Source of the DNA: Naegleria gruberi
Lineage: Eukaryota
DNA: 64,000 nucleotides
Strand: one strand, 5' to 3'
NCBI GenBank assembly: GCA_000004985.1
Contig: GG738894.1
A model generated the notes under the pieces. The model saw only the letters and a list, made by a program, of their open reading frames with translations. It was not told the origin of the DNA and did not search any database. Below are positions 1 through 58,770 of the stretch, in pieces (within the stretch, counting starts at the first letter, position 1; every line of letters begins with the position of its first letter). Made by a program: the position numbers and the translations under genes.

Positions 1-3000
1 NNNNNNNNNNNNNNNNNNNNNNNNNNNNNNNNNNNNNNNNNNNNNNNNNNNNNNNNNNNNNNNNNNNNNNNNNNNNNNNNNNNNNNNNNNNNNNNNNNNN
101 NNNNNNNNNNNNNNNNNNNNNNNNNNNNNNNNNNNNNNNNNNNNNNNNNNNNNNNNNNNNNNNNNNNNNNNNNNNNNNNNNNNNNNNNNNNNNNNNNNNN
201 NNNNNNNNNNNNNNNNNNNNNNNNNNNNNNNNNNNNNNNNNNNNNNNNNNNNNNNNNNNNNNNNNNNNNNNNNNNNNNNNNNNNNNNNNNNNNNNNNNNN
301 NNNNNNNNNNNNNNNNNNNNNNNNNNNNNNNNNNNNNNNNNNNNNNNNNNNNNNNNNNNNNNNNNNNNNNNNNNNNNNNNNNNNNNNNNNNNNNNNNNNN
401 NNNNNNNNNNNNNNNNNNNNNNNNNNNNNNNNNNNNNNNNNNNNNNNNNNNNNNNNNNNNNNNNNNNNNNNNNNNNNNNNNNNNNNNNNNNNNNNNNNNN
501 NNNNNNNNNNNNNNNNNNNNNNNNNNNNNNNNNNNNNNNNNNNNNNNNNNNNNNNNNNNNNNNNNNNNNNNNNNNNNNNNNNNNNNNNNNNNNNNNNNNN
601 NNNNNNNNNNNNNNNNNNNNNNNNNNNNNNNNNNNNNNNNNNNNNNNNNNNNNNNNNNNNNNNNNNNNNNNNNNNNNNNNNNNNNNNNNNNNNNNNNNNN
701 NNNNNNNNNNNNNNNNNNNNNNNNNNNNNNNNNNNNNNNNNNNNNNNNNNNNNNNNNNNNNNNNNNNNNNNNNNNNNNNNNNNNNNNNNNNNNNNNNNNN
801 NNNNNNNNNNNNNNNNNNNNNNNNNNNNNNNNNNNNNNNNNNNNNNNNNNNNNNNNNNNNNNNNNNNNNNNNNNNNNNNNNNNNNNNNNNNNNNNNNNNN
901 NNNNNNNNNNNNNNNNNNNNNNNNNNNNNNNNNNNNNNNNNNNNNNNNNNNNNNNNNNNNNNNNNNNNNNNNNNNNNNNNNNNNNNNNNNNNNNNNNNNN
1001 NNNNNNNNNNNNNNNNNNNNNNNNNNNNNNNNNNNNNNNNNNNNNNNNNNNNNNNNNNNNNNNNNNNNNNNNNNNNNNNNNNNNNNNNNNNNNNNNNNNN
1101 NNNNNNNNNNNNNNNNNNNNNNNNNNNNNNNNNNNNNNNNNNNNNNNNNNNNNNNNNNNNNNNNNNNNNNNNNNNNNNNNNNNNNNNNNNNNNNNNNNNN
1201 NNNNNNNNNNNNNNNNNNNNNNNNNNNNNNNNNNNNNNNNNNNNNNNNNNNNNNNNNNNNNNNNNNNNNNNNNNNNNNNNNNNNNNNNNNNNNNNNNNNN
1301 NNNNNNNNNNNNNNNNNNNNNNNNNNNNNNNNNNNNNNNNNNNNNNNNNNNNNNNNNNNNNNNNNNNNNNNNNNNNNNNNNNNNNNNNNNNNNNNNNNNN
1401 NNNNNNNNNNNNNNNNNNNNNNNNNNNNNNNNNNNNNNNNNNNNNNNNNNNNNNNNNNNNNNNNNNNNNNNNNNNNNNNNNNNNNNNNNNNNNNNNNNNN
1501 NNNNNNNNNNNNNNNNNNNNNNNNNNNNNNNNNNNNNNNNNNNNNNNNNNNNNNNNNNNNNNNNNNNNNNNNNNNNNNNNNNNNNNNNNNNNNNNNNNNN
1601 NNNNNNNNNNNNNNNNNNNNNNNNNNNNNNNNNNNNNNNNNNNNNNNNNNNNNNNNNNNNNNNNNNNNNNNNNNNNNNNNNNNNNNNNNNNNNNNNNNNN
1701 NNNNNNNNNNNNNNNNNNNNNNNNNNNNNNNNNNNNNNNNNNNNNNNNNNNNNNNNNNNNNNNNNNNNNNNNNNNNNNNNNNNNNNNNNNNNNNNNNNNN
1801 NNNNNNNNNNNNNNNNNNNNNNNNNNNNNNNNNNNNNNNNNNNNNNNNNNNNNNNNNNNNNNNNNNNNNNNNNNNNNNNNNNNNNNNNNNNNNNNNNNNN
1901 NNNNNNNNNNNNNNNNNNNNNNNNNNNNNNNNNNNNNNNNNNNNNNNNNNNNNNNNNNNNNNNNNNNNNNNNNNNNNNNNNNNNNNNNNNNNNNNNNNNN
2001 NNNNNNNNNNNNNNNNNNNNNNNNNNNNNNNNNNNNNNNNNNNNNNNNNNNNNNNNNNNNNNNNNNNNNNNNNNNNNNNNNNNNNNNNNNNNNNNNNNNN
2101 NNNNNNNNNNNNNNNNNNNNNNNNNNNNNNNNNNNNNNNNNNNNNNNNNNNNNNNNNNNNNNNNNNNNNNNNNNNNNNNNNNNNNNNNNNNNNNNNNNNN
2201 NNNNNNNNNNNNNNNNNNNNNNNNNNNNNNNNNNNNNNNNNNNNNNNNNNNNNNNNNNNNNNNNNNNNNNNNNNNNNNNNNNNNNNNNNNNNNNNNNNNN
2301 NNNNNNNNNNNNNNNNNNNNNNNNNNNNNNNNNNNNNNNNNNNNNNNNNNNNNNNNNNNNNNNNNNNNNNNNNNNNNNNNNNNNNNNNNNNNNNNNNNNN
2401 NNNNNNNNNNNNNNNNNNNNNNNNNNNNNNNNNNNNNNNNNNNNNNNNNNNNNNNNNNNNNNNNNNNNNNNNNNNNNNNNNNNNNNNNNNNNNNNNNNNN
2501 NNNNNNNNNNNNNNNNNNNNNNNNNNNNNNNNNNNNNNNNNNNNNNNNNNNNNNNNNNNNNNNNNNNNNNNNNNNNNNNNNNNNNNNNNNNNNNNNNNNN
2601 NNNNNNNNNNNNNNNNNNNNNNNNNNNNNNNNNNNNNNNNNNNNNNNNNNNNNNNNNNNNNNNNNNNNNNNNNNNNNNNNNNNNNNNNNNNNNNNNNNNN
2701 NNNNNNNNNNNNNNNNNNNNNNNNNNNNNNNNNNNNNNNNNNNNNNNNNNNNNNNNNNNNNNNNNNNNNNNNNNNNNNNNNNNNNNNNNNNNNNNNNNNN
2801 NNNNNNNNNNNNNNNNNNNNNNNNNNNNNNNNNNNNNNNNNNNNNNNNNNNNNNNNNNNNNNNNNNNNNNNNNNNNNNNNNNNNNNNNNNNNNNNNNNNN
2901 NNNNNNNNNNNNNNNNNNNNNNNNNNNNNNNNNNNNNNNNNNNNNNNNNNNNNNNNNNNNNNNNNNNNNNNNNNNNNNNNNNNNNNNNNNNNNNNNNNNN

Positions 3001-6000
3001 NNNNNNNNNNNNNNNNNNNNNNNNNNNNNNNNNNNNNNNNNNNNNNNNNNNNNNNNNNNNNNNNNNNNNNNNNNNNNNNNNNNNNNNNNNNNNNNNNNNN
3101 NNNNNNNNNNNNNNNNNNNNNNNNNNNNNNNNNNNNNNNNNNNNNNNNNNNNNNNNNNNNNNNNNNNNNNNNNNNNNNNNNNNNNNNNNNNNNNNNNNNN
3201 NNNNNNNNNNNNNNNNNNNNNNNNNNNNNNNNNNNNNNNNNNNNNNNNNNNNNNNNNNNNNNNNNNNNNNNNNNNNNNNNNNNNNNNNNNNNNNNNNNNN
3301 NNNNNNNNNNNNNNNNNNNNNNNNNNNNNNNNNNNNNNNNNNNNNNNNNNNNNNNNNNNNNNNNNNNNNNNNNNNNNNNNNNNNNNNNNNNNNNNNNNNN
3401 NNNNNNNNNNNNNNNNNNNNNNNNNNNNNNNNNNNNNNNNNNNNNNNNNNNNNNNNNNNNNNNNNNNNNNNNNNNNNNNNNNNNNNNNNNNNNNNNNNNN
3501 NNNNNNNNNNNNNNNNNNNNNNNNNNNNNNNNNNNNNNNNNNNNNNNNNNNNNNNNNNNNNNNNNNNNNNNNNNNNNNNNNNNNNNNNNNNNNNNNNNNN
3601 NNNNNNNNNNNNNNNNNNNNNNNNNNNNNNNNNNNNNNNNNNNNNNNNNNNNNNNNNNNNNNNNNNNNNNNNNNNNNNNNNNNNNNNNNNNNNNNNNNNN
3701 NNNNNNNNNNNNNNNNNNNNNNNNNNNNNNNNNNNNNNNNNNNNNNNNNNNNNNNNNNNNNNNNNNNNNNNNNNNNNNNNNNNNNNNNNNNNNNNNNNNN
3801 NNNNNNNNNNNNNNNNNNNNNNNNNNNNNNNNNNNNNNNNNNNNNNNNNNNNNNNNNNNNNNNNNNNNNNNNNNNNNNNNNNNNNNNNNNNNNNNNNNNN
3901 NNNNNNNNNNNNNNNNNNNNNNNNNNNNNNNNNNNNNNNNNNNNNNNNNNNNNNNNNNNNNNNNNNNNNNNNNNNNNNNNNNNNNNNNNNNNNNNNNNNN
4001 NNNNNNNNNNNNNNNNNNNNNNNNNNNNNNNNNNNNNNNNNNNNNNNNNNNNNNNNNNNNNNNNNNNNNNNNNNNNNNNNNNNNNNNNNNNNNNNNNNNN
4101 NNNNNNNNNNNNNNNNNNNNNNNNNNNNNNNNNNNNNNNNNNNNNNNNNNNNNNNNNNNNNNNNNNNNNNNNNNNNNNNNNNNNNNNNNNNNNNNNNNNN
4201 NNNNNNNNNNNNNNNNNNNNNNNNNNNNNNNNNNNNNNNNNNNNNNNNNNNNNNNNNNNNNNNNNNNNNNNNNNNNNNNNNNNNNNNNNNNNNNNNNNNN
4301 NNNNNNNNNNNNNNNNNNNNNNNNNNNNNNNNNNNNNNNNNNNNNNNNNNNNNNNNNNNNNNNNNNNNNNNNNNNNNNNNNNNNNNNNNNNNNNNNNNNN
4401 NNNNNNNNNNNNNNNNNNNNNNNNNNNNNNNNNNNNNNNNNNNNNNNNNNNNNNNNNNNNNNNNNNNNNNNNNNNNNNNNNNNNNNNNNNNNNNNNNNNN
4501 NNNNNNNNNNNNNNNNNNNNNNNNNNNNNNNNNNNNNNNNNNNNNNNNNNNNNNNNNNNNNNNNNNNNNNNNNNNNNNNNNNNNNNNNNNNNNNNNNNNN
4601 NNNNNNNNNNNNNNNNNNNNNNNNNNNNNNNNNNNNNNNNNNNNNNNNNNNNNNNNNNNNNNNNNNNNNNNNNNNNNNNNNNNNNNNNNNNNNNNNNNNN
4701 NNNNNNNNNNNNNNNNNNNNNNNNNNNNNNNNNNNNNNNNNNNNNNNNNNNNNNNNNNNNNNNNNNNNNNNNNNNNNNNNNNNNNNNNNNNNNNNNNNNN
4801 NNNNNNNNNNNNNNNNNNNNNNNNNNNNNNNNNNNNNNNNNNNNNNNNNNNNNNNNNNNNNNNNNNNNNNNNNNNNNNNNNNNNNNNNNNNNNNNNNNNN
4901 NNNNNNNNNNNNNNNNNNNNNNNNNNNNNNNNNNNNNNNNNNNNNNNNNNNNNNNNNNNNNNNNNNNNNNNNNNNNNNNNNNNNNNNNNNNNNNNNNNNN
5001 NNNNNNNNNNNNNNNNNNNNNNNNNNNNNNNNNNNNNNNNNNNNNNNNNNNNNNNNNNNNNNNNNNNNNNNNNNNNNNNNNNNNNNNNNNNNNNNNNNNN
5101 NNNNNNNNNNNNNNNNNNNNNNNNNNNNNNNNNNNNNNNNNNNNNNNNNNNNNNNNNNNNNNNNNNNNNNNNNNNNNNNNNNNNNNNNNNNNNNNNNNNN
5201 NNNNNNNNNNNNNNNNNNNNNNNNNNNNNNNNNNNNNNNNNNNNNNNNNNNNNNNNNNNNNNNNNNNNNNNNNNNNNNNNNNNNNNNNNNNNNNNNNNNN
5301 NNNNNNNNNNNNNNNNNNNNNNNNNNNNNNNNNNNNNNNNNNNNNNNNNNNNNNNNNNNNNNNNNNNNNNNNNNNNNNNNNNNNNNNNNNNNNNNNNNNN
5401 NNNNNNNNNNNNNNNNNNNNNNNNNNNNNNNNNNNNNNNNNNNNNNNNNNNNNNNNNNNNNNNNNNNNNNNNNNNNNNNNNNNNNNNNNNNNNNNNNNNN
5501 NNNNNNNNNNNNNNNNNNNNNNNNNNNNNNNNNNNNNNNNNNNNNNNNNNNNNNNNNNNNNNNNNNNNNNNNNNNNNNNNNNNNNNNNNNNNNNNNNNNN
5601 NNNNNNNNNNNNNNNNNNNNNNNNNNNNNNNNNNNNNNNNNNNNNNNNNNNNNNNNNNNNNNNNNNNNNNNNNNNNNNNNNNNNNNNNNNNNNNNNNNNN
5701 NNNNNNNNNNNNNNNNNNNNNNNNNNNNNNNNNNNNNNNNNNNNNNNNNNNNNNNNNNNNNNNNNNNNNNNNNNNNNNNNNNNNNNNNNNNNNNNNNNNN
5801 NNNNNNNNNNNNNNNNNNNNNNNNNNNNNNNNNNNNNNNNNNNNNNNNNNNNNNNNNNNNNNNNNNNNNNNNNNNNNNNNNNNNNNNNNNNNNNNNNNNN
5901 NNNNNNNNNNNNNNNNNNNNNNNNNNNNNNNNNNNNNNNNNNNNNNNNNNNNNNNNNNNNNNNNNNNNNNNNNNNNNNNNNNNNNNNNNNNNNNNNNNNN

Positions 6001-9000
6001 NNNNNNNNNNNNNNNNNNNNNNNNNNNNNNNNNNNNNNNNNNNNNNNNNNNNNNNNNNNNNNNNNNNNNNNNNNNNNNNNNNNNNNNNNNNNNNNNNNNN
6101 NNNNNNNNNNNNNNNNNNNNNNNNNNNNNNNNNNNNNNNNNNNNNNNNNNNNNNNNNNNNNNNNNNNNNNNNNNNNNNNNNNNNNNNNNNNNNNNNNNNN
6201 NNNNNNNNNNNNNNNNNNNNNNNNNNNNNNNNNNNNNNNNNNNNNNNNNNNNNNNNNNNNNNNNNNNNNNNNNNNNNNNNNNNNNNNNNNNNNNNNNNNN
6301 NNNNNNNNNNNNNNNNNNNNNNNNNNNNNNNNNNNNNNNNNNNNNNNNNNNNNNNNNNNNNNNNNNNNNNNNNNNNNNNNNNNNNNNNNNNNNNNNNNNN
6401 NNNNNNNNNNNNNNNNNNNNNNNNNNNNNNNNNNNNNNNNNNNNNNNNNNNNNNNNNNNNNNNNNNNNNNNNNNNNNNNNNNNNNNNNNNNNNNNNNNNN
6501 NNNNNNNNNNNNNNNNNNNNNNNNNNNNNNNNNNNNNNNNNNNNNNNNNNNNNNNNNNNNNNNNNNNNNNNNNNNNNNNNNNNNNNNNNNNNNNNNNNNN
6601 NNNNNNNNNNNNNNNNNNNNNNNNNNNNNNNNNNNNNNNNNNNNNNNNNNNNNNNNNNNNNNNNNNNNNNNNNNNNNNNNNNNNNNNNNNNNNNNNNNNN
6701 NNNNNNNNNNNNNNNNNNNNNNNNNNNNNNNNNNNNNNNNNNNNNNNNNNNNNNNNNNNNNNNNNNNNNNNNNNNNNNNNNNNNNNNNNNNNNNNNNNNN
6801 NNNNNNNNNNNNNNNNNNNNNNNNNNNNNNNNNNNNNNNNNNNNNNNNNNNNNNNNNNNNNNNNNNNNNNNNNNNNNNNNNNNNNNNNNNNNNNNNNNNN
6901 NNNNNNNNNNNNNNNNNNNNNNNNNNNNNNNNNNNNNNNNNNNNNNNNNNNNNNNNNNNNNNNNNNNNNNNNNNNNNNNNNNNNNNNNNNNNNNNNNNNN
7001 NNNNNNNNNNNNNNNNNNNNNNNNNNNNNNNNNNNNNNNNNNNNNNNNNNNNNNNNNNNNNNNNNNNNNNNNNNNNNNNNNNNNNNNNNNNNNNNNNNNN
7101 NNNNNNNNNNNNNNNNNNNNNNNNNNNNNNNNNNNNNNNNNNNNNNNNNNNNNNNNNNNNNNNNNNNNNNNNNNNNNNNNNNNNNNNNNNNNNNNNNNNN
7201 NNNNNNNNNNNNNNNNNNNNNNNNNNNNNNNNNNNNNNNNNNNNNNNNNNNNNNNNNNNNNNNNNNNNNNNNNNNNNNNNNNNNNNNNNNNNNNNNNNNN
7301 NNNNNNNNNNNNNNNNNNNNNNNNNNNNNNNNNNNNNNNNNNNNNNNNNNNNNNNNNNNNNNNNNNNNNNNNNNNNNNNNNNNNNNNNNNNNNNNNNNNN
7401 NNNNNNNNNNNNNNNNNNNNNNNNNNNNNNNNNNNNNNNNNNNNNNNNNNNNNNNNNNNNNNNNNNNNNNNNNNNNNNNNNNNNNNNNNNNNNNNNNNNN
7501 NNNNNNNNNNNNNNNNNNNNNNNNNNNNNNNNNNNNNNNNNNNNNNNNNNNNNNNNNNNNNNNNNNNNNNNNNNNNNNNNNNNNNNNNNNNNNNNNNNNN
7601 NNNNNNNNNNNNNNNNNNNNNNNNNNNNNNNNNNNNNNNNNNNNNNNNNNNNNNNNNNNNNNNNNNNNNNNNNNNNNNNNNNNNNNNNNNNNNNNNNNNN
7701 NNNNNNNNNNNNNNNNNNNNNNNNNNNNNNNNNNNNNNNNNNNNNNNNNNNNNNNNNNNNNNNNNNNNNNNNNNNNNNNNNNNNNNNNNNNNNNNNNNNN
7801 NNNNNNNNNNNNNNNNNNNNNNNNNNNNNNNNNNNNNNNNNNNNNNNNNNNNNNNNNNNNNNNNNNNNNNNNNNNNNNNNNNNNNNNNNNNNNNNNNNNN
7901 NNNNNNNNNNNNNNNNNNNNNNNNNNNNNNNNNNNNNNNNNNNNNNNNNNNNNNNNNNNNNNNNNNNNNNNNNNNNNNNNNNNNNNNNNNNNNNNNNNNN
8001 NNNNNNNNNNNNNNNNNNNNNNNNNNNNNNNNNNNNNNNNNNNNNNNNNNNNNNNNNNNNNNNNNNNNNNNNNNNNNNNNNNNNNNNNNNNNNNNNNNNN
8101 NNNNNNNNNNNNNNNNNNNNNNNNNNNNNNNNNNNNNNNNNNNNNNNNNNNNNNNNNNNNNNNNNNNNNNNNNNNNNNNNNNNNNNNNNNNNNNNNNNNN
8201 NNNNNNNNNNNNNNNNNNNNNNNNNNNNNNNNNNNNNNNNNNNNNNNNNNNNNNNNNNNNNNNNNNNNNNNNNNNNNNNNNNNNNNNNNNNNNNNNNNNN
8301 NNNNNNNNNNNNNNNNNNNNNNNNNNNNNNNNNNNNNNNNNNNNNNNNNNNNNNNNNNNNNNNNNNNNNNNNNNNNNNNNNNNNNNNNNNNNNNNNNNNN
8401 NNNNNNNNNNNNNNNNNNNNNNNNNNNNNNNNNNNNNNNNNNNNNNNNNNNNNNNNNNNNNNNNNNNNNNNNNNNNNNNNNNNNNNNNNNNNNNNNNNNN
8501 NNNNNNNNNNNNNNNNNNNNNNNNNNNNNNNNNNNNNNNNNNNNNNNNNNNNNNNNNNNNNNNNNNNNNNNNNNNNNNNNNNNNNNNNNNNNNNNNNNNN
8601 NNNNNNNNNNNNNNNNNNNNNNNNNNNNNNNNNNNNNNNNNNNNNNNNNNNNNNNNNNNNNNNNNNNNNNNNNNNNNNNNNNNNNNNNNNNNNNNNNNNN
8701 NNNNNNNNNNNNNNNNNNNNNNNNNNNNNNNNNNNNNNNNNNNNNNNNNNNNNNNNNNNNNNNNNNNNNNNNNNNNNNNNNNNNNNNNNNNNNNNNNNNN
8801 NNNNNNNNNNNNNNNNNNNNNNNNNNNNNNNNNNNNNNNNNNNNNNNNNNNNNNNNNNNNNNNNNNNNNNNNNNNNNNNNNNNNNNNNNNNNNNNNNNNN
8901 NNNNNNNNNNNNNNNNNNNNNNNNNNNNNNNNNNNNNNNNNNNNNNNNNNNNNNNNNNNNNNNNNNNNNNNNNNNNNNNNNNNNNNNNNNNNNNNNNNNN

Positions 9001-9860
9001 NNNNNNNNNNNNNNNNNNNNNNNNNNNNNNNNNNNNNNNNNNNNNNNNNNNNNNNNNNNNNNNNNNNNNNNNNNNNNNNNNNNNNNNNNNNNNNNNNNNN
9101 NNNNNNNNNNNNNNNNNNNNNNNNNNNNNNNNNNNNNNNNNNNNNNNNNNNNNNNNNNNNNNNNNNNNNNNNNNNNNNNNNNNNNNNNNNNNNNNNNNNN
9201 NNNNNNNNNNNNNNNNNNNNNNNNNNNNNNNNNNNNNNNNNNNNNNNNNNNNNNNNNNNNNNNNNNNNNNNNNNNNNNNNNNNNNNNNNNNNNNNNNNNN
9301 NNNNNNNNNNNNNNNNNNNNNNNNNNNNNNNNNNNNNNNNNNNNNNNNNNNNNNNNNNNNNNNNNNNNNNNNNNNNNNNNNNNNNNNNNNNNNNNNNNNN
9401 NNNNNNNNNNNNNNNNNNNNNNNNNNNNNNNNNNNNNNNNNNNNNNNNNNNNNNNNNNNNNNNNNNNNNNNNNNNNNNNNNNNNNNNNNNNNNNNNNNNN
9501 NNNNNNNNNNNNNNNNNNNNNNNNNNNNNNNNNNNNNNNNNNNNNNNNNNNNNNNNNNNNNNNNNNNNNNNNNNNNNNNNNNNNNNNNNNNNNNNNNNNN
9601 NNNNNNNNNNNNNNNNNNNNNNNNNNNNNNNNNNNNNNNNNNNNNNNNNNNNNNNNNNNNNNNNNNNNNNNNNNNNNNNNNNNNNNNNNNNNNNNNNNNN
9701 NNNNNNNNNNNNNNNNNNNNNNNNNNNNNNNNNNNNNNNNNNNNNNNNNNNNNNNNNNNNNNNNNNNNNNNNNNNNNNNNNNNNNNNNNNNNNNNNNNNN
9801 NNNNNNNNNNNNNNNNNNNNNNNNNNNNNNNNNNNNNNNNNNNNNNNNNNNNNNNNNNNN
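1..9860. other. Assembly gap (unbroken run of N)
   Basis: Positions 1-9860 are all n; real sequence starts at 9861. Confidence 1.
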
Positions 9861-34085: not shown

Positions 34086-37000
34086 ATGCCTCAAAGTAGA
34101 ACAATTACACCAAATTTTCCCTCCATCAACATGTTCCTATTTCATCGAGAACCGTACTTTTTAGATTCGAGTGAGGATAAAAATCGTATTCAAATCAACA
34201 ACAAGAACAATAATAGGGATGATGGAGAAGCAAAAACAATATTAAGGATGAGAAGTTTGGATGAAACTGTGCGGGATGATGATACGCATTCTTCTTCAAT
34301 ACATCATCAAGAAGCCTTGGAACATGTTTTTGGTAAGACAAGAACATCTTCCGCTACAACGAGAACAGTATCACAAAATTCAAGGAATACTAATTATTTT
34401 AATGCTAATACAATAGCAAAAAGCGAGAATAACAACAACTACAAGAAAAACCTTATTAATCACCTGATAATATTATTATTAATTACACTCTTAGTTGTAC
34501 TTCCAACCTTTGTAGAGTGCCTACATCCATTCGCCACATACAATTGGAACAATGATGATGAGATTTGGTTTGCTCAGTCGGCACCATTTTCTGGCCCTAG
34601 TAGCACAATTGGGACAGGTAAGTAGTATCAACATGTAAATGTTCTATAGTGAGTACTTTAATTAGAATTGAGAAATGGAATATTAGCTGCTTTTAATGAA
34701 ATCAACTCTGTTGGAGGTATATTCGGAAAGAAGAAGCTGAGATTGATCAGTATGGACGATGGCTATGAACCACCCAATACAGTTCGCAACATTAATAATT
34801 TTCTGAATGGAAACAAGACAATATTTGGATTTATTGGAGTGGTAGGCTCACCCACTATTCTTGCAGCCTATGATTTGGTAGTGTCGTCTGGTCTTCCTCT
34901 GATTGGAAGTTACACAGGAGCTACATTTTTGAGACAGCCCTTTCATGCAAATTTTGTAAACATTAGACCATCATACTATGATGAAACAGCTGCAATTATG
35001 GATGTATTGATTGGAAAAAACATGGCGAGGAAAATATCAGTCCTTCATCAAGATGATCCTTTTGGAATTAATGGATATGAAGGAGTTAAACGTATACTTG
35101 ACCATATGGGAATTCCAATGTGTTCATCAGGAAGTTATCAAAGAAACACACTCAACGTTGAGGATGCATTCTACAAGATTGCAAAGTGTGATCCAGATGC
35201 TATTGTTGTAGTGGCACTGTATGCACCAGCAACAAAATTCATCAAAATGGTTACCAACTCGACCCTTTACCGAAAGGATATTTTATTTGCAGCAACCTCA
35301 ATAGCCAGCGATTTAATTGTAAAGGAGCTAGGCCCTGAAATTGCTCCAAGAGTTCTGTTTTCACAAGTTGCCCCTTCTCCAACAGATACATCCTCGACCC
35401 TTGTTAAATCTTTCATCACCGCAAGGAAATCAATAGATTCTAATTTTACACAAGGTACATTTATTGAAATAGAGGGATATATTGCTGGAAAAATGACGTA
35501 TCACTTGCTCCACAGAATAATTGGATACATGTCCCCCAGTAACATGCTGACTAATCTTTACTATTCACAAGAAGTTATGTTTGACAATTTGAAATTAGGA
35601 CCATTCTCTTCAGTGTCTGTCAAGGATCCTGTTTACCTTATTCAAACAAATTTTTCCACTCAATTTGATTGCAATCAAGGCTCAAAATCAGTTTGGAGGA
35701 CGAAAGCTGATTCTAACTTGAATTTCTATAATTATGCACCTCCATTTTCATGGTACACTTCTGGCACATGTATTTCAACCCCAGGCGATGTCATCAATCC
35801 AATTTTATTAGCACAACTTGTTTATAACAATCTAGGATCTTCTAATACCTATCTCACTAACGGAATTAAAGCCGCCTTATCCACTGCATATGTCCAGGGA
35901 AGACCTATACATCTACTAACTCGCACTTACTCAGATTTCCAATCTCTTATTTCCACCACTCAAGATCTCGTTGAAAACTACTATATTACTGCATTGGTTG
36001 GATCTTCTGGATTGGGAGAAGTTATTAGTTTAAATACTTCCTCTATTGATCTATTCAGAGAGATATTTAAAACATCCTTCCCACATATTCCTCTGATTGG
36101 AAGTGTAGTTGACAATCCGTCAATCATGTCAACAACTGGTTCGTTGTTTATCCCATCCATGGTAAACATTAGAAGTACAATCATTGAGGAAATTGGAACT
36201 TTGCTTCAACATGCATTCAAAAGAGGAGTTACCAGAATATCAATAGTGAACTGTCCTGCATACGTCCATATCAACAAAATTTTCAAACTTTTAATGTCAA
36301 AATTGCAACTAACAATTGAGAGTGAGCATGGATGCTCAGATACCATTCTTTTCGATAGCATCTCGATAAACCCACAAGTGGTTCTAGTAGCATGTGCATC
36401 TGCCATTCTCCCTGGAACTCTTTTAAAGTTGGATGCAAGTAGTAATCTTAGACAAGATGCATTGTTTTTTGTTTTGGAAGAGAAGAAAAAGCTAGTCTTG
36501 TCAAGCCTTGAGAGTGGACCTAAAGGTGTACAAAGACCTATCTTATATAGTTCTTCATTCCCAGATCCAAAAATCTCGGCCGTAACCATTGTTTCAAGAT
36601 TTAAATCAACTACACCGCCTCTAACAGATCTTTCTGGGTATTATTCTTCTGATTTGGCTCTTGAAGGATATTTTATTGGAGAGTTTGTTGGATCAATATT
36701 GGGATCAGTTGCAGATTCAGCACCCTCAATAACAGGTCAGGCAATTATTGACTTTATATACAAAAGTCAACAGATAGTGGTGAGAGACCAAAAGTATGGA
36801 TACTTTATTAGAGACAAGAAAAATTCATTGTGCAATATTGGGTCGAGAACAAGATTTCTATTCCAGATAAGAAATTGTTCAACCTCAATACTATCAACAA
36901 CAGGTTTCCAACAACAATCATGTTGTTTACAATCTGTTTTAGAGGATTCCAGTACCCTCAACTTTAGAAGACCAATGCAGTTCGTTAGATTCAAACCAGG

Positions 37001-39125
37001 AGACACTGAACAACTTACCATCGAAGCAATAGATGATTTTGCAAAAGGAGTAATATCTTTCATTAATGATATTAATACCATGGGGAAATATTCATTTGCC
37101 TTTCAATTTCTTACTCAAACTTTTAATGGATCTTCTGATATTCAAATGTTAGCTAACGATTTAACCTCTAAACAGCAAATATTTGGTGTTATCGCTCCAG
37201 ATGTAGATTATGACATTGAAATGTTTACGAACATTAGTTTACCAATTATCGGCCCCAAAACTGCTAACATGCAATACAGAAATTACAAAAAAAATGTAAT
37301 TAACATCTACCCTTCCTTAATAGATGAAATCTTCAATTTGGTTGAATTTTTCCTAAAATTTAGTGACGCAATTACTATTGTTTATGAGTCCTTGGATGTT
37401 AATAATTATGCTCAACCCCAGGTATTGAAAACTATCCAAAATATAATAACTAACAGACAACTTTCAAGAGTTTCCCTCACTTGTATGACTTGTGTCAGTG
37501 ATCAAGCAGGGTCAGTAATAATTATGGCAGAAACAGAAGAAATCATTCAGTTTATTAGAGCAAATCAGAAGATAATGAACAGAGTTGGTTTGATTTCAGA
37601 AGCATATGAAGAGCATGATGATCTTAAAGAGTTGTTGTCCCTTCATTCGAATGTTTACATGTCCACTATAGTATCCCTCACAACAGAAATGACGGGATTT
37701 GTGGAATCTGAATTCACAAAGCATTTTCAAGTTTCGTTTCCAAACGACGTGCCAACAATAGAGTCTATAGATGGTTTCGTTTCCTTTTTGTTTGTTGAAA
37801 AAGTATTTGAGTCATTCTTAGATAGAATACAACCAAGACAACAACAGGCTTTCATTGACAAGATATATAGTCTCTCTGTTTTAGATATTGGTGACATTAC
37901 TCTTGGAAAGTTCACCAATACCTGCAATCAAGGAACAAGAAGATTGTACGTTAGCAGATTTTCCCTTAGTAACACAAGTGAAGTCATAACAGTCACAGAA
38001 CCAAACAGTCTTTTCACAATTTCAACATGTGGGTATAACTTCCCTTCCCCTGCAGTCATGGATTATCTTTATTATATTCTAATTTCTATATTGGCTATAA
38101 TTTTTTTGATTGTAGCCATGGGAATATCAGGTTTATTAATTTACAGACAGTATAAGGCTAAAAAGTCACACCTTCATGCTCCAAAAGGAGGAGTCATTTC
38201 TTTTGCGTTTACTGATATTCAAAATTCTACTGTATTGTGGCAATACAATGAGAAAGCAATGAAATTAGCTCTTGCTATACATAACAAGATAGTTAGGGAT
38301 AATATTAAGAAATACAGAGGTTACGAAGTCAAAACTCAAGGGGATTCATTCTTTGTTGCTTTTAGAAAGATAGAAGATTGTATTAATTGGGCATTCTCTG
38401 TTCAAAGTGATTTATTGAAAGCAAATTGGCCATCTGATATTATTACACAGTATGATTGTAGACCAGAATTTGAGGAAGGAACAAAAGTTTTGATTTATTC
38501 TGGTTTGAGGGTAAGAATGGGGCTTCATTGTGGTCAAGCTGAATATATTTTTGATAAGACTGTGAAAAGACCAGATTACTTTGGCAACACCATTAACCAG
38601 ACTGCCAGAATTCAAGCTCTTGCAAGAGGAGGAGAAATATTATGTAGTGAGGCCATGTTACAAGAAAGCAAATATTTATTTAAAATTTCTGGCCCAAGTT
38701 TCGAGGAGGAATTGTCGCATCAATCCTTAAACATACCAAGAAGAAGCTCTGAATCCACATTGTCAAAGAAGCGTAGATCAGTTGTTCCTGGATCCAATCC
38801 AATCTATACAGCCGAAGATTTTGGATATTGCTCCCTAAAAGGTATTAAGGAGGAAGTCAGAGTCTTTACACTTAAAAATAATGATATGAAACTTAGAGTT
38901 TTTCCACCTATTGGAAGATACAAAAATATTGAGGAAACATCGAACAATACCTTGCGATCGATTGCTTCCGTTCCAACATTTGAAACATCAAGTATCAATG
39001 GAGATGATATCATTGTGCACATTCCTGATCAAGCATCAGACAACCAAAAGAGCAAACCTGAACGGTTGAACACTCAAGCGATTGAACTTCCAGAGATTAT
39101 GATTTCTGGTGTAGATAATAAATAA
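34086..39125 (+). CDS. Receptor-type class III adenylyl/guanylyl cyclase with tandem extracellular PBP type 1 (Leu/Ile/Val-binding, ANF-receptor-like) domains
   Basis: Exons are 34086-34617 and 34666-39125, separated by a 48-nt GTAAGT..AG intron in phase 1. The N-terminal anchor is LIILLLITLLVVLPTF. The PBP1 signature is LRNGILAAFNEINSVGGIFGKKKLRLISMDDGYEP...GFIGVVGSPT, with further PBP-like blocks downstream. A single TM follows (YILISILAIIFLIVAMGISGLLIY). The cyclase catalytic core is ISFAFTDIQNST...KTQGDSFFVAF...RVRMGLHCG...DYFGNTINQTARI. Confidence 0.92.
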
Positions 39126-53969: not shown

Positions 53970-54659
53970 TTGACAAGCCTACCACAATTTCTTGATTCTG
54001 AATTCATCAAACTATTAATTAATTATAACATTGACTATCGTATTATTGAGCACATGCCTGAAGTTGTAAAAGTAACACCCATTACATCTGAATTTGTGAA
54101 GAAATGGCCACAAGCTTTTACTCTATACCCAGAATTTTATTCAGACGATGTACAATTCATTACAGATAGTAATGTTATGGCTATTGCATTTGCTCGTGAA
54201 CCAGTGCAACTGGAACACTTGGATTTAGTCGCTCAGGCAGGATTGACAACATTGCAGAAAAATTATACACAAAACTACTCACTGGTAAAAAGAGAGAGTG
54301 GGTAGTCTTTAGATGTGATTTTAATGTGTGCTGGTTCTCCTTTTGGAGGTCATTTGGCTGATCTTATTCCAGAACAAGTCTTGTTGGACAGGGATTTCTT
54401 AGTCAACCTTGTCAGGAGAAATGGCTTTGCTTACCAAATGATTCGAGAAATGACGATGGAAGAGGATGAAGATGAAGAATTAGCTATGGAAGCTTTGAAA
54501 TCTTGGGGCTGATTTGAATCTTCATTACTATATCAATATCATGATGCTAAAATAATTTACAAGATTTTCAAGGAATTATTGAATCAACGTTTGAAGGCTT
54601 TTTACAGTGAAGATTTCTTTATTCCCTCAAGATATTCTTCACTTGCTTTTAAGGTTTAA
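53970..54659 (+). pseudogene. Single reading frame interrupted by two in-frame stops (TAG 54303-54305, TGA 54510-54512): pseudogene or readthrough candidate
   Basis: Track ORFs 53970-54305 and 54315-54512 are in the same frame, and 49 further open codons run to the TAA at 54657-54659. The only interruptions are the two stops. There is no ATG at the 5' end (the track start is TTG). No usable GT..AG pair removes either stop while keeping the frame. Confidence 0.35.
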
Positions 54660-54762: not shown

Positions 54763-56784
54763 ATGTCGCTATTCCTCACGCACTGTTTCCCTCATGCTAG
54801 CTCATGCACCGATCACTATGAATCCGATTCGGAATATGAATGTCGTGACGATCTATTCGATTTAAACAGATTCACACAACCAATTCACGTCGGATTGGAT
54901 TTAACAATCGAAGGTTCAAGAAAATTAGGACACTACCTATTGATCATCATGTGGAGGTTAATATTAAAAAGTCCCATGTTATTCCGAGTGAGAGATGAAG
55001 CGAAAGAACAAGTCAAATTGTTGGAGAAATTTTGTTGCCAGAGACACGAAGAGTTTGCTAGGGAGGTTTGTTGTTCGAATCATCATTTGTTTGAAGATTC
55101 GAGTGTGGAAGTGTTTGATGATATGCAGGTGTGGGCTTCCATGAGAGAAAGTGAAGAAAATGAGACACGGGAATACGAAGGAGAAAAGAGAATTAAATTA
55201 GATGCTGAATCCCTGTCAAAAGTTTATACACTTTCGAATTATTTTGCTACTATTGTTAAAAAATACATATTTGGAGAGTTGGCGAAACATGGCACTGCAG
55301 AGATTTACAAATTTATCACAAAGCAAAATAAGATTGCACTTACATTTAAAATTGAGGAGCTCAGAGATATGGTATTGAAATATTTCGAATATACTCCTTC
55401 AATGCTTCCATTGGAAGATCAGGATGTTAAATTATATTTTATTGGAATGACAGCCTTACTGGAATATTTGGCAGCTGAAATGATTGAATTGGGTGGAAAT
55501 GCCGCTAGAGATGCCCGTCAGGAATATATTACACCTTCTTGTTTTGAAATAGCCACTTCAGGAGATGCAGAATTGGAAAGGACGGTACTATTTCACATGA
55601 ACCATTTGCCTCTCGTTGATTTCAATTATTTTTATGGAGCCAATCAAACAGTATTACCTCCTATTGATGTGAATGAGAAAGCCAATAGTGGAGAGGAATT
55701 TAATTTTACTCAACTACCAACTGAATTACATAACACCATACTCAAAAATGTTTCTTCGTTGGAAGAACTTTTGGAAATGAGATTGGTTTGCAAACAATGG
55801 AACTATTTCATCATGAATGATAATGATATTTGGAAGAGTTTAATTTGTAACAATACGATTTCAGAAGATTTATTCAGGTTCTGTGATTCAACTTTTACTG
55901 TTGGTGAGTTGGAAACTATTTTGAGTAGAGGAAAAGATCTAAAACCTCTCCATTTTGGCCAACAAGTAATTAATCATTTCTATGAGAAGAATGATTGGAA
56001 GTCCCTATACTTTATTCTCGTACGAAGACATTTGACATTTATACGTGATTTGGATTTGATGAAATCAAGAGAATTTTTCGATGAATATTTCAATTACGAT
56101 TCTTCTGTAGAATCATATGACAACTCGAAAAAGAAACTGCAAATTGGAATTACAAAGGGTGTATTTGCGAATTTCAACTTTACAAAACACCTATCATCAC
56201 GTGTTTCGTCTAAGGTTTACATTCCTAAAGATGCTCTTTCAGAATTTTTGAAATTTGGAAATAATTATTCACTAGTTGGTGTGATTGACTTTTCAAAATT
56301 CTCCTCCTTCATTTCATGTCGTTTGTTCCCAAAAAATGGATTATTATATTGCTTTTATCACAAAATCAATCAAGCAGATTTTCTATTCTTTGAGAATTAT
56401 TCTCTTGAATCTGAACAATTAATTGAATTTGAAATCAAAGACAAAAGCTTTGAATTTCCTCAACCAATTAATCCATACCAAGTCTACCATGAACAAATTA
56501 TTGTCAATCAACCTTCATGTTGTCCACTCTTTTACTTGCAGCAAGCACAAGGTCATCGTTCAGGTTGCAATCTAGCCCCAAGCGTTCTATTTAACAATAA
56601 TGAAGACAAACCTGAAACAATGATTCAATCCTACCTCAGAGAGGATGACGAGGATAATATAGTACTGCTATCAGACACCTTGGAGGAATCAGAAGATACT
56701 TTTTCTATTTACATTTCAAGAGAGGATTTAATCTTAAGAAAGTTTGAGAATGCAAAAATTGAATATGTGAAACCAAACTACTAG
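54763..56784 (+). CDS. F-box protein containing a histone H2A-like histone-fold segment
   Basis: ATG-initiated ORF of 673 aa. Residues ~190-275 (nt ~55330-55588) align by eye with the H2A core: LLEYLAAEMIELGGNAARDARQEYITPSCFEIATSGDAELERTV versus [44 protein letters not shown]. The F-box lies at residues ~316-360 (LPTELHNTILKNVSSLEELLEMRLVCKQWNYFIMNDNDIWKSL). Confidence 0.8.
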   Translation: MSLFLTHCFPHASSCTDHYESDSEYECRDDLFDLNRFTQPIHVGLDLTIEGSRKLGHYLLIIMWRLILKSPMLFRVRDEAKEQVKLLEKFCCQRHEEFAREVCCSNHHLFEDSSVEVFDDMQVWASMRESEENETREYEGEKRIKLDAESLSKVYTLSNYFATIVKKYIFGELAKHGTAEIYKFITKQNKIALTFKIEELRDMVLKYFEYTPSMLPLEDQDVKLYFIGMTALLEYLAAEMIELGGNAARDARQEYITPSCFEIATSGDAELERTVLFHMNHLPLVDFNYFYGANQTVLPPIDVNEKANSGEEFNFTQLPTELHNTILKNVSSLEELLEMRLVCKQWNYFIMNDNDIWKSLICNNTISEDLFRFCDSTFTVGELETILSRGKDLKPLHFGQQVINHFYEKNDWKSLYFILVRRHLTFIRDLDLMKSREFFDEYFNYDSSVESYDNSKKKLQIGITKGVFANFNFTKHLSSRVSSKVYIPKDALSEFLKFGNNYSLVGVIDFSKFSSFISCRLFPKNGLLYCFYHKINQADFLFFENYSLESEQLIEFEIKDKSFEFPQPINPYQVYHEQIIVNQPSCCPLFYLQQAQGHRSGCNLAPSVLFNNNEDKPETMIQSYLREDDEDNIVLLSDTLEESEDTFSIYISREDLILRKFENAKIEYVKPNY

Positions 56785-57061: not shown

Positions 57062-57457
57062 CTACAAATCTTCGTCTTCAAATTGTGGAGGTTTGTGATG
57101 ATCTGGATTAACATTTCCAAACGAAGATGAAGAACTACCTCCTCTATTTCCACTTCCATAACCTCCAAATGGTCCAATGGTAGGATAAACTGGATCAAAT
57201 CGAGAACCTGGTAACATCTGAGGAGGTTTCATATCTCCTCCTCCCATTGAAGAAGCAGAAGGAAAATTCGAACGATCATTGAAAATTGGATTATTTGGTC
57301 CAACTTGATTGCCACCAAATCCACCACTCATTGAGGAAGGAGCATTTCCATGTAAAGGTTGAAAACAAGGCAATGGATTTAAATCTTGATCTCCTACTCT
57401 TCTATTATTATTCATCATCATGTTGTTACTATTATTGTTAAAATTATTGTTATTCAT
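57062..57457 (-). CDS. Small Gly/Asn/Pro-rich protein resembling the C-terminal region of proteasome regulator PI31
   Basis: ATG-initiated ORF of 131 aa. LPGSRFDPVYPTIGPFGG...NPDHHKPPQFEDEDL parallels the PI31 C-terminus (PPGARFDPFGPIG...NPDHLPPPGYDDMYL). No N-terminal FP domain is encoded. Confidence 0.6.
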   Translation of the reverse strand: MNNNNFNNNSNNMMMNNNRRVGDQDLNPLPCFQPLHGNAPSSMSGGFGGNQVGPNNPIFNDRSNFPSASSMGGGDMKPPQMLPGSRFDPVYPTIGPFGGYGSGNRGGSSSSSFGNVNPDHHKPPQFEDEDL

Positions 57458-57660: not shown

Positions 57661-58770
57661 TTATTCAAAATCTATTGAGATATCAGAGAGTTGATTGTTA
57701 ATTATTTTGATCAATAAATTAGATTTGAAACTATTGATATTGTGGAAGCGCTTCATATGTTCATACAAAAGATATCTCAATGCATACAAGGTCAGTAGGC
57801 ATTGGTTTTCATTTCCGTGACTATATCCATACCATGGAGTGAACATTACCTTCTTAGTTTTGTGAATAACCCATGGATATTTCTGCCTTTCACTTACACT
57901 CCTAGCAAGTAAATGCCAATCATTTACATTACTCAAGGTGGTGTCACAAACTCCACAAATGTATAAATCATCCAATTTCAAACAATCCTCAATAGTCTCT
58001 TCCACTTCACCAATTGTTTGAACTCTATTTTCTAATTTGTTCATACACTTATTCACAAATATAGTCAAGCTCTGATTATCCAATTGATTAATATTTTGTA
58101 GCAAGAGTTGTACATAAGTTCCATCTGTATACTCCACATAACCATCATTTGTGTCCTTTCTTCTCACAAAACCAAGTCTCATTGGAACTGATCGTCCTGC
58201 TCCTCTCAAAAACACTACAGACAACTCTCCACTGTTGATTAAATCATTAATCACACCTACAACAACTGAATCAAATCCCGTATAAGTTCCAGAATATAAC
58301 GTGAAGAAAACAATATTATATCCTCTCAGAAAGCTCCTCATCACTTGAGGTTGCAAGCTACAAAAACTGGATTCATTAATCCGATCCACCTTCTTGAATA
58401 TACATTTCTGATCGAGCATGAATCTCGTCCAATGTGATTCAGTGGACTCCTCCGAAGTCTTGAATAATTTTGGATTTTTAACATAATAACACAATCTCTC
58501 TTCAATACATTGCATAAAGTGGGCAGGTTCTGATGTATCTGCTTGAATAATCAAGGCTGATTGTAATTCATCAAATTCCTTTATAGTCAATTCATCCAAA
58601 TTGTCAGTGATTGCAAGTGGAACCAGATCAATGTCCTTCCTATCATGAGGTGTCCCTGCATCTAGATTATTATCAATTGTATCGTAATCATCCATTTTTT
58701 TTGTTGTAATATTTATTCTAAAAATAATTTGGCTCCATGGTAACAATTTGAAAGCAGTTACACGCAACAT
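57661..58770 (-). CDS. Hypothetical protein
   Basis: ORF of 369 aa with ATGs at 58770 and 58695 (MDDYDTIDNN...). It has ordinary globular composition. No family was recognised. Confidence 0.6.
   Translation of the reverse strand: MLRVTAFKLLPWSQIIFRINITTKKMDDYDTIDNNLDAGTPHDRKDIDLVPLAITDNLDELTIKEFDELQSALIIQADTSEPAHFMQCIEERLCYYVKNPKLFKTSEESTESHWTRFMLDQKCIFKKVDRINESSFCSLQPQVMRSFLRGYNIVFFTLYSGTYTGFDSVVVGVINDLINSGELSVVFLRGAGRSVPMRLGFVRRKDTNDGYVEYTDGTYVQLLLQNINQLDNQSLTIFVNKCMNKLENRVQTIGEVEETIEDCLKLDDLYICGVCDTTLSNVNDWHLLARSVSERQKYPWVIHKTKKVMFTPWYGYSHGNENQCLLTLYALRYLLYEHMKRFHNINSFKSNLLIKIINNQLSDISIDFE

What the first reader, a model, noticed from the sequence alone, without database searches (positions are those of the whole stretch)
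54763..56784. Histone H2A-like fold embedded in an F-box protein
Residues ~230-275 match the alpha2-L2-alpha3 region of histone H2A: LLEYLAAEMIELGGNAARDARQEYITPSCFEIATSGDAELERTV versus [44 protein letters not shown]. A weaker match to the preceding alpha1 region is also present. About 40 residues later comes a canonical F-box (LPTELHNTILKNV...LVCKQWNYFIMNDNDIWKSL), followed by a ~310-aa unknown C-terminal domain. The protein lacks the basic histone tails. An SCF substrate adaptor carrying an H2A-type histone fold could dock on H2B or on histone chaperones. I am not aware of a described example.
Basis: partly seen in the sequence, partly recalled or inferred. Interest (0 to 1): 0.65.

Follow-up and report, generated by a model that had tools for sequence, protein, structure and literature searches.

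The report
Built-in H2B–H2A histone pair in F-box protein
A Naegleria gene encodes a ubiquitin-ligase adaptor (F-box protein) whose front half is a complete H2B–H2A histone pair fused into one chain; the pair has lost its DNA-gripping residues but kept the nucleosome's "acidic patch", a combination I found described nowhere.

Summary
ORF 54763-56784 (673 aa) is 97% identical to Naegleria gruberi NAEGRDRAFT_69196. It contains a whole single-chain H2B→H2A pseudo-dimer at residues ~30-280, not a lone H2A fold.

- **Sequence evidence:** the best PDB sequence matches are engineered H2B-H2A chimeras (E 2.7e-9; family profile E 5.7e-18). A profile of 24 genuine doublets scores the protein at 84 bits, against at most 5.1 bits for 2000 shuffles.
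- **Rest of the protein:** a canonical F-box (316-361), a conserved helical linker and a DUF1963/TYPP protein-binding domain.
- **Distribution:** the architecture recurs in an N. gruberi paralog, three Willaertia magna proteins and metagenomic relatives. It is under purifying selection (dN/dS ~0.26).
- **Altered features:** the DNA-contact arginines, basic tails and positive charge are gone (pI 5.15). The acidic-patch residues are kept. A 75-aa insert carries an NLS-like KRxK motif.

Best reading: a nuclear SCF adaptor that uses a DNA-free copy of the nucleosome surface as a protein-binding platform. The function is inferred only. I found no prior description. Rating: new variant of known kinds; interest about 0.6.

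The parts
54763..56784 (+). Complete single-exon ORF, 673 aa plus stop. It is the ortholog (97% identity) of Naegleria gruberi NAEGRDRAFT_69196, annotated 'F-box domain-containing protein'.
   Evidence: The N-terminus MSLFLTHCFPH is conserved in ortholog L001.
54850..54990 (+). H2B-like alpha1-L1-alpha2 (residues 30-76). RFTQPIHVGLDLT corresponds to VLKQVHPDTGIS.
54991..55218 (+). Family-specific 75-aa insertion at the H2B alpha2/L2 boundary (residues 77-152). It has a conserved long helix (78-103) followed by an acidic, disordered loop.
   Evidence: Alignments A1 and A2. AF2 gives pLDDT 74-92 for the helix and <50 for residues 124-145. pI 4.66.
55186..55197 (+). NLS-like basic motif K142-R143-x-K145. 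It is invariant in the family and reads KKRKV or KKRKI in Willaertia and P0005.
   Evidence: Invariant columns. The NLS reading is inference from the monopartite K-K/R-x-K/R consensus (own knowledge).
55219..55323 (+). H2B-like L2-alpha3-alphaC (residues 153-187). It includes the acidic-patch residues E172 (= H2B E105, invariant), H176 and E180.
55336..55602 (+). H2A-like alpha1-L1-alpha2-L2-alpha3-alphaC (residues 192-280). The acidic-patch residues are E234, E239, E242, D268 and E270. The DNA-contact residue R77 is replaced by Y255 and R81 by S259.
55603..55707 (+). Conserved segment after the H2A fold (residues 281-315), in the position of the H2A docking region. It carries invariant D286, G292 and P299 and the motif (V/E)LPxI. 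Among the regions compared, only the F-box has a lower dN.
   Evidence: Low AF2 confidence.
55708..55845 (+). F-box (residues 316-361): LPTELHNTILKNV...MRLVCKQWNYFI.
   Evidence: PF12937 30.9 bits (cut-off 24.3) and PF00646 24.8 bits (cut-off 20.5). Six of the seven sequences scanned match; the seventh was the window's C-terminal fragment, which lacks the F-box.
55846..56202 (+). Conserved helical linker (residues 362-480) with the invariant motif CDSTFT...NDW.
56203..56781 (+). C-terminal DUF1963/TYPP (YwqG-family) domain (residues ~481-673), with the hallmark motif R-L-F-P-K-x-G-L-L-Y-C-F.
   Evidence: The window protein scores 13.6 bits (E 0.085), below the cut-off. Aligned relatives P0005 (35.9 bits, covering profile 1-211 of 216) and P0006 (34.2 bits) are above the cut-off of 23. 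TYPP superfamily is described in PMC4275035.

Best explanation
The gene encodes a nuclear SCF-type (Skp1-Cullin-F-box) ubiquitin-ligase adaptor. It belongs to a small family seen so far only in heterolobosean amoebae (Naegleria, Willaertia) and a few metagenomic relatives.

Its N-terminal ~280 residues are a natural single-chain H2B->H2A histone pseudo-dimer (a 'histone doublet'). This module has been converted from a DNA-wrapping unit into a DNA-free protein-binding module:
- The basic tails, the DNA-contact arginines and the net positive charge are gone.
- A 75-residue insert interrupts the H2B L2 region.
- The residues that form the nucleosome acidic patch are retained.

Proposed mechanism:
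1. The F-box docks the protein on Skp1-Cul1-Rbx1.
2. The KRxK motif takes it to the nucleus.
3. The pseudo-dimer presents a nucleosome-surface look-alike that captures proteins which normally recognise the H2A-H2B acidic patch through arginine anchors.
4. The C-terminal TYPP/DUF1963 domain is a second peptide-binding module. It binds the same substrate or a second one.
5. Bound proteins are then ubiquitylated.

Shown by the analysis: the architecture, the fold, conservation, the loss of DNA-contact residues and the retention of the acidic patch.
Inferred only: Skp1 binding, nuclear localisation, the role of the acidic patch and the identity of the substrates.
For: Doublet:
- The best PDB sequence hits are engineered H2B-H2A chimeras spanning the junction (E 2.7e-9).
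- The family profile reaches E 5.7e-18.
- The reciprocal profile of 24 genuine doublets scores 84 bits against at most 5.1 bits for shuffles.
- HMMER against 1.8e9 proteins returns doublets and triplets as single-stretch hits covering residues ~150-273.
- The AF2 model of residues 26-312 has pLDDT 80.5 and pTM 0.82.

F-box: above Pfam cut-offs.
TYPP.

A real, conserved gene:
- A paralog NAEGRDRAFT_69753, Willaertia proteins KAL9652418, KAL9646046 and KAL9657947, and metagenomic P0005 share the whole architecture.
- dN/dS is 0.26 overall and 0.19-0.46 across the histone parts.
- The gene sits among ordinary cellular genes: eEF2, PI31, actin-family and kinase genes.

Loss of DNA binding:
- H2A R29, R32, R77, R81 and R88 are non-basic in every member, and H2B R92 is too. 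Most genuine doublets keep them. H2A R42 is also lost in the Naegleria members (Q) but is retained as R in P0005 and the Willaertia proteins.
- pI is 5.15, and 4.34 for the H2A part against 9.86 for human H2A.

Acidic patch kept:
- H2A E56, E61, E64, D90 and E92, and H2B E105, H109 and E113, are retained in nearly all members.
- Three of the eight patch positions are among only 10 invariant columns (hypergeometric P 0.0016-0.0065).

NLS-like motif: K142, R143 and K145 are invariant.
Against: - There is no experimental or expression data for any member.
- The acidic-patch glutamates lie in the most conserved helix of every H2A, so their retention could partly be inertia or structural. E91 is variable, and E113 is lost in some members.
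- In typical F-box proteins the substrate receptor lies C-terminal to the F-box. The TYPP domain alone could therefore be the receptor, with the doublet serving another role.
- The full-length AF2 model is too poor (pLDDT 49) to show how the domains are arranged.
- The ortholog in L001 carries a 1-nt deletion inside the H2A part. This could mean the domain is dispensable there, or it could be an assembly error.
- No N. fowleri or N. lovaniensis ortholog appeared in the searches, so the family is patchy.
Confidence: 0.42

Rival explanations
1. SOS-like regulatory module. The histone pseudo-dimer does not bind outside partners. It folds back on the F-box, linker or TYPP part of the same protein, or mediates dimerisation, to gate or orient the adaptor. 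This is how the histone domain of the Ras activator Son of sevenless regulates its catalytic unit. The conserved acidic surface would then bind a basic segment of the same protein.
Against: A stand-alone 224-aa copy of the same modified doublet exists with no F-box or TYPP downstream (P0013). Another relative has the opposite domain order (P0140). Both suggest the module has a function of its own. The NLS-like motif and the specific retention of the nucleosome acidic patch are not required by this model. AF2 gave no confident inter-domain contacts.
Confidence: 0.25
2. Chromatin-tethered ligase. The pseudo-dimer replaces an H2A-H2B dimer in a nucleosome or hexasome, or binds free H3-H4. The histone-variant-like adaptor thereby plants SCF directly on chromatin or targets orphan H3-H4.
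For: The fold is a full H2A-H2B unit. Viral single-chain H2B-H2A doublets do assemble into nucleosome-like particles (PMC8357426; 7n8n). The region corresponding to the H2A docking segment is conserved and keeps a (V/E)LPxI motif reminiscent of GVLPNI. The NLS-like motif also fits.
Against: Every DNA-contact arginine checked is lost in the Naegleria members, and the module is acidic. The 75-aa insertion sits at the H2B alpha2/L2 DNA-binding and H4-facing corner. The H2B residues of the H2B-H4 four-helix bundle are replaced: Y83 by V/I, R92 by N, E93 by Y and L100 by K. There are no tails.
Confidence: 0.1
3. One reading: a lone H2A-type fold that docks on free H2B or on H2A-H2B chaperones to deliver them to SCF.
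For: The H2A similarity is real.
Against: An H2B-like fold precedes the H2A fold in the same chain, and the two model confidently as an intramolecular pair. The basic surface used by the classical chaperones is lost.
Confidence: 0.04
4. Artefact: a decaying pseudogene, a mis-assembled fusion of neighbouring genes, or a recently inserted giant-virus gene with no host function.
For: The L001 ortholog has a frameshift. H2B-H2A doublets are otherwise known from giant viruses, which also carry many F-box genes (the F-box point is own knowledge). No transcript evidence was available.
Against: The ORF is uninterrupted in this window, in the reference N. gruberi genome, in the paralog and in Willaertia. 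dN/dS is 0.26. The flanking genes are ordinary cellular genes. Scanning IMG/VR found no viral relative. The sequence is closer to eukaryotic scH2B-H2A (25% identity) than to Marseilleviridae doublets (14-18%).
Confidence: 0.04

Closest known systems
Histone domain of Son of sevenless (SOS1, PDB 1q9c)
   Different: SOS shows no detectable sequence similarity here (18% identity in the structural alignment). The Naegleria module is still recognisably H2B and H2A in sequence (46% identity over H2A alpha2-alpha3) and keeps the acidic-patch residues. The partner domains differ: DH-PH-Rem-Cdc25 in SOS, F-box plus TYPP here. SOS is metazoan and works in the cytoplasm at the membrane.
Giant-virus H2B-H2A histone doublets (Marseilleviridae, for example Melbournevirus 7n8n, miniH2B-H2A 9cvt; metagenomic doublets, triplets and quadruplets)
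   Different: Viral doublets are basic, keep the DNA-contact arginines and build nucleosome-like particles (PMC8357426). This protein is acidic, lacks those arginines, is encoded in a cellular genome among cellular genes and is fused to an F-box and a TYPP domain. Talbert et al. [quoted passage not shown]
Engineered single-chain H2B-H2A / H2B-H2A.Z constructs (for example 2jss, 4m6b, 6w4l, 7ybf; RNF168-UbcH5c-H2B-H2A fusions 8uq8-8uqe)
   Different: They are laboratory constructs of canonical histones that retain DNA binding and have no F-box.
Modular F-box proteins with an extra N-terminal domain (for example Fbxo7 with Ubl/FP domains, beta-TrCP with its D domain)
   Same: The F-box lies in the middle of the protein, with a protein-binding domain on each side. 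The F-box HMM scores are above threshold.
   Different: None is known to carry histone folds or a TYPP domain (own knowledge; literature searches found none).
TYPP superfamily (TSR4/PDCD2/PDCD2L/YwqG; Pfam DUF1963)
   Same: The C-terminal domain of the family matches DUF1963. [quoted passage not shown]
   Different: That paper's text does not mention an F-box at all. The window protein's own score is below the Pfam cut-off. A profile of the domain found no solved structure by sequence.

Membership tests
F-box proteins (Pfam PF12937 / PF00646) | Match to the F-box HMM above the curated gathering score | tested here: met
   PF12937 30.9 bits against 24.3, and PF00646 24.8 against 20.5, at residues 316-361. 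The same domain is found in the six full-length or F-box-containing relatives scanned.
F-box proteins (Pfam PF12937 / PF00646) | Binds Skp1 and assembles into an SCF ligase | not testable with these tools
   Only the consensus LPxE...L..MRLVCKxW residues could be checked. They are present and invariant.
Core histone H2A / Pfam Histone (PF00125) | Match to the Pfam Histone HMM above the gathering score | tested here: not met
   No PF00125 hit was reported at E<=10 for the window protein or any relative. Genuine doublets in the same hit list score 60-197 bits.
Core histone H2A / Pfam Histone (PF00125) | Significant sequence homology to H2A across alpha1-alpha3 | tested here: met
   BLASTP E 1e-12; phmmer against PDB; family profile E ~1e-12 to H2A alone.
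Core histone H2A / Pfam Histone (PF00125) | Basic protein with N- and C-terminal tails and conserved DNA-contact arginines (R29, R42, R77 and others) | tested here: not met
   pI is 4.34 for the H2A part. R29->E, R32->D, R42->Q, R77->Y and R81->S. The H2A tail is absent: H2B alphaC runs into H2A alpha1 after about 5 residues.
H2B-H2A histone doublet (single-chain pseudo-dimer) | H2B-type fold followed by H2A-type fold in one chain, pairing intramolecularly | tested here: met
H2B-H2A histone doublet (single-chain pseudo-dimer) | Assembles with H3-H4 and DNA into nucleosome-like particles | not testable with these tools
   The sequence argues against it: lost arginines, acidic pI, an insertion at H2B L2 and altered four-helix-bundle residues.
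Nucleosome acidic patch (functional surface of H2A-H2B) | H2A E56, E61, E64, D90, E91, E92 and H2B E105, E113 present | tested here: met
   The window protein has E234, E239, E242, D268, A269(!), E270, E172 and E180, so 7 of 8 are retained. E61, D90 and E105 are invariant in the six-sequence family alignment A4, although the reference ortholog P0001 has D at E61. Actual binding of arginine anchors was not tested.
SOS-type histone domain | H2A-H2B-like pseudo-dimer inside a non-histone protein | tested here: met
TYPP / DUF1963 (PF09234) | Match to the DUF1963 HMM above the gathering score (23 bits) | tested here: inconclusive
   The window protein scores 13.6 bits (E 0.085). Relatives alignable end to end, P0005 at 35.9 bits (profile 1-211 of 216) and P0006 at 34.2 bits, pass. 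The profile against PDB found nothing. AF2 confidence for this domain was low.

The most novel reading that the evidence does not exclude
Heterolobosean amoebae use a DNA-free, single-chain copy of the nucleosome's H2A-H2B face, with an intact acidic patch, as the substrate-recognition module of a nuclear SCF ubiquitin ligase. This would be a 'nucleosome-surface decoy' that selects arginine-anchor chromatin proteins for degradation. It would also be the first confirmed H2B-H2A doublet encoded by a cellular eukaryote. That bears on the debate over whether fused histone doublets are a purely viral invention.
Probability: 0.25. Interest if true: 0.8.

Novelty: new variant of a known kind. Interest (0 to 1): 0.6.

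Why it matters
Fused histone doublets have been treated as a hallmark of giant viruses. A 2022 review states that none has been confirmed among eukaryotic histones (PMC9145170), and a 2024 study stresses their rarity in eukaryotes (PMC11222145).

This window holds a conserved, selected H2B-H2A doublet in a cellular genome. It has been repurposed: the DNA-binding residues are stripped, the acidic patch is kept, and the module is wired to the ubiquitin system through an F-box.

- **If the acidic patch is the working surface:** this would be a natural reagent-like module for capturing acidic-patch readers, and a new way for an E3 ligase to recognise chromatin proteins.
- **If the module is regulatory instead:** it would be only the second example, after SOS, of an H2A-H2B pseudo-dimer co-opted in a eukaryotic signalling protein. 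Unlike SOS, its histone ancestry is still readable in the sequence.
- **Annotation:** it also gives a concrete annotation for several 'hypothetical' F-box proteins of Naegleria and Willaertia.

Tried and rejected
- **Pfam Histone HMM:** no hit even at E<=10. I judged this a sensitivity problem, because four independent tests are strongly positive.
- **The search for homologous proteins:** all three searches returned only the N. gruberi ortholog, the truncated P0002 and one histone. The word-indexed search missed relatives that the exhaustive HMMER search found, so it added little on distribution.
- **Collection scans:** IMG/VR viral contigs and JGI metagenome contigs, scanned with the family alignment, gave no confirmed relatives. 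There is therefore no support for a viral source, but also no wider distribution.
- **C-terminal profile against PDB sequences:** nothing. The full-length AF2 model was too poor (pLDDT 49) to identify that domain by fold.
- **AFDB fold search:** the library was not available, so other natural pseudo-dimers in UniProt could not be surveyed.
- **Cysteine/histidine-rich stretch in the insertion** (CCQRH...CCSNHH): considered as a zinc site and rejected, because it is not conserved in the family.
- **Origin of the doublet** (host H2A/H2B genes or a viral doublet): left unresolved. The sequence is closer to eukaryotic histones than to Marseilleviridae doublets, but the domains are short and fast-evolving, and no taxon labels were available for the metagenomic doublets.
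- **Literature:** searches for the locus tags and for F-box plus histone-fold combinations found nothing.
Full report
**The sequence and its source**

It is 97% identical over its full length to the Naegleria gruberi hypothetical protein NAEGRDRAFT_69196, which UniRef annotates only as 'F-box domain-containing protein'.

The window is therefore Naegleria nuclear DNA with about 35% GC. Its first 9860 bases are an assembly gap of N. The neighbouring genes are ordinary cellular genes: eEF2, a PI31 homolog, trypsin-like, LRR, actin-family and kinase genes, an aminoacyl-tRNA-synthetase-like gene, a patatin gene and a receptor-type adenylate cyclase. Nothing suggests a viral island.

**Checking the observation**

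The H2A similarity is real:
- BLASTP against human H2A gives E 1e-12. The alignment runs from the alpha1 motif (LTFKIEELRDMVLK ~ LQFPVGRVHRLLRK) to alpha3.
- The F-box at residues 316-361 exceeds both Pfam cut-offs.
- There are no basic tails.

Pfam's Histone model reports nothing, even at E<=10, for this protein or any relative. Every more sensitive test overrules it.

The best phmmer hits in the PDB are not H2A chains. They are engineered single-chain H2B-H2A(.Z) chimeras, matched in one stretch over query 153-274 (E 2.7e-9).

Residues 158-187 (NYFATIVKKYIFGELAKHGTAEIYKFITK) are H2B alpha3-alphaC. They lead into the H2A alpha1 after only about five residues. Further upstream, residues 30-76 align with H2B alpha1-L1-alpha2 (RFTQPIHVGLDLT ~ VLKQVHPDTGIS). 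A family-specific insertion of about 75 residues (77-152) separates these from alpha3.

Supporting scores:
- A profile of the family's N-terminal region hits scH2B-H2A at E 5.7e-18.
- In the reciprocal test, an HMM built only from 24 independent H2B-H2A doublets scores the window protein at 84.1 bits in one domain across the junction (residues 156-273). The best of 2000 shuffles reaches 5.1 bits.
- An AlphaFold2 model of residues 26-312 with a 33-sequence alignment has mean pLDDT 80.5 and pTM 0.82, with the expected helices.
- The earlier, poorer full-length model already gave TM ~0.7 to about 40 H2A-H2B entries.

The module is a complete H2B->H2A pseudo-dimer.

**The rest of the protein**

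After the F-box comes a conserved helical linker (362-480) and then a C-terminal domain. In relatives that align end to end, this domain is a clear DUF1963 match: P0005 scores 35.9 bits covering profile positions 1-211 of 216, and P0006 scores 34.2 bits, against a cut-off of 23. The window protein reaches only 13.6 bits.

DUF1963 belongs to the TYPP superfamily (TSR4, YwqG, PDCD2L, PDCD2). [quoted passage not shown]

**Family and selection**

An exhaustive HMMER search of 1.84 billion representatives with residues 1-309 found:
- the N. gruberi ortholog;
- a paralog, NAEGRDRAFT_69753 (666 aa, 40% identity);
- Willaertia magna proteins (669, 679 and 422 aa);
- a metagenomic 646-aa protein, P0005;
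- a Naegleria-like metagenomic ortholog, L001.

All have the same architecture from end to end.

A 224-aa stand-alone version of the modified doublet lies on a eukaryotic metagenomic contig with no F-box downstream (P0013). A further metagenomic protein, P0140, has a sub-threshold F-box-like segment N-terminal to a similarly degenerate doublet.

The next hits are genuine doublets, triplets and H2A sequences. No N. fowleri or N. lovaniensis member surfaced.

Between the window and L001, dN/dS is 0.26 overall, 0.19 for H2B alpha1-alpha2, 0.46 for H2B alpha3-alphaC, 0.33 for the H2A part and 0.21 for the F-box. L001 has a 1-nt deletion in the GGN codon at the end of H2A alpha2 but is otherwise open on both sides. 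It may be an assembly error or a very recent lesion.

**What has changed relative to histones**

I mapped functional residues through a near-canonical doublet in the alignment.

- **DNA contacts lost.** H2A R29, R32, R77, R81 and R88 are non-basic in all family members (for example R77->Y/C/V), and H2B R92 is too. Most of the 24 genuine doublets keep them. H2A R42 is Q in the Naegleria members but is retained as R in P0005 and the Willaertia proteins.
- **H4-facing residues replaced.** The H2B residues that face H4 in the four-helix bundle (Y83, R92, E93, L100) are replaced by a family-invariant set.
- **Charge reversed.** The doublet region has pI 5.15. The H2A part has pI 4.34, against 9.86 for the human fold.
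- **Acidic patch preserved.** H2A E56, E61, E64, D90 and E92 and H2B E105, H109 and E113 are kept in nearly all members. In the six-sequence family alignment A4, three of the eight patch positions are among only ten invariant columns (P 0.0016-0.0065).
- **The insertion.** It comprises a conserved helix and then an acidic disordered loop. The loop carries an invariant K-R-x-K motif, which reads KKRKV or KKRKI in Willaertia and P0005 and resembles a monopartite nuclear localisation signal (the NLS reading is inference).

**Interpretation**

The architecture is secure: an H2B-H2A pseudo-dimer, an F-box and a TYPP domain.

The most likely mechanism is a nuclear SCF adaptor in which the pseudo-dimer is a DNA-free protein-binding platform that imitates the H2A-H2B face of the nucleosome. 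The TYPP domain would be a second binding module.

I rate this above three rivals:
- **SOS-like intramolecular regulator.** The module also occurs alone and in the reverse order, and the nucleosome-specific surface is what has been conserved.
- **Incorporation into nucleosomes.** The DNA-binding and H4-binding features are gone.
The H2B partner is built in.

All functional steps (Skp1 binding, localisation, ligands) are inferred. No expression data were available.

**Comparison with what is known**

The closest structural analogue in cellular proteins is the SOS histone domain. [quoted passage not shown] It shares no detectable sequence similarity with this protein.

[quoted passage not shown] Searches for F-box plus histone-fold combinations, for the locus tags and in a pan-eukaryotic chromatin survey that included N. 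gruberi found no description. Automated fold-level annotations in databases that I could not query may already flag a histone fold.

**Verdict**

This is a new variant of known kinds: a modular F-box adaptor combined with a histone pseudo-dimer. It is conserved in a narrow protist lineage and has a specific, testable hypothesis attached. Interest is 0.6.

Noticed in passing
window 57062-57457 (-), possibly continuing in 57661-58770 (-): A PI31 proteasome-regulator C-terminal domain (PF08577, E 1.4e-14) is encoded convergently, 278 bp beyond the F-box gene's stop codon. In animals PI31 is the binding partner of the F-box protein Fbxo7 (own knowledge). The adjacency is probably coincidental in a eukaryotic genome.
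   Followed up: no
L001 760-800 (ortholog in an ENA metagenome, Naegleria-like, 66% aa identity): A single-base deletion in the codon equivalent to G244 splits the ortholog into 241-aa and 420-aa ORFs. Both halves are otherwise intact and under purifying selection. This is an assembly error or a very recent frameshift.
   Followed up: partly
L004 242-1600 (protein P0140, JGI metagenome 3300015611, GC 43%): A 452-aa protein has a sub-threshold F-box-like segment (residues 98-133, E 2.9e-4) N-terminal to a degenerate H2B-H2A doublet (198-316). The doublet shares the unusual ITPSC in place of IIPRH. This is a second, differently ordered pairing of an F-box and a doublet, from an unknown organism.
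   Followed up: partly
L002 6001-6675 (protein P0013, ENA metagenome, eukaryotic contig with G-alpha and Ras genes): A stand-alone 224-aa copy of the same modified doublet, including part of the insertion, with no F-box or DUF1963 downstream on that strand.
   Followed up: partly
window 55186-55197 (residues 142-145): An invariant K-R-x-K (KKRKV or KKRKI in Willaertia and P0005) inside the disordered acidic insertion looks like a classical nuclear localisation signal.
   Followed up: no
window 1-9860: One uninterrupted run of N (a scaffold gap) occupies the first 15% of the window.
   Followed up: yes
window 34668-39125 (+): A 1485-aa ORF combines two periplasmic-binding-protein-like ligand-binding domains with an adenylate/guanylate cyclase catalytic domain, giving a receptor-type cyclase.
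   Followed up: no
window 54315-54512 (+): A short 65-aa ORF just upstream of the gene has a sub-threshold DUF4116 match (E 1.8e-4, 21.5 bits against a cut-off of 24.9). Together with ORF 53970-54305, it may be part of an unannotated or intron-split gene.
   Followed up: no
proteins P0016, P0026, P0078, P0098 (metagenomic hits): Several long metagenomic proteins combine an H2B-H2A doublet with a third (H3-like) histone fold, and one has a sub-threshold R3H match (22.1 bits, cut-off 26.8). P0016 also has an insertion between H2B alpha2 and alpha3, at the same place as the Naegleria family.
   Followed up: no
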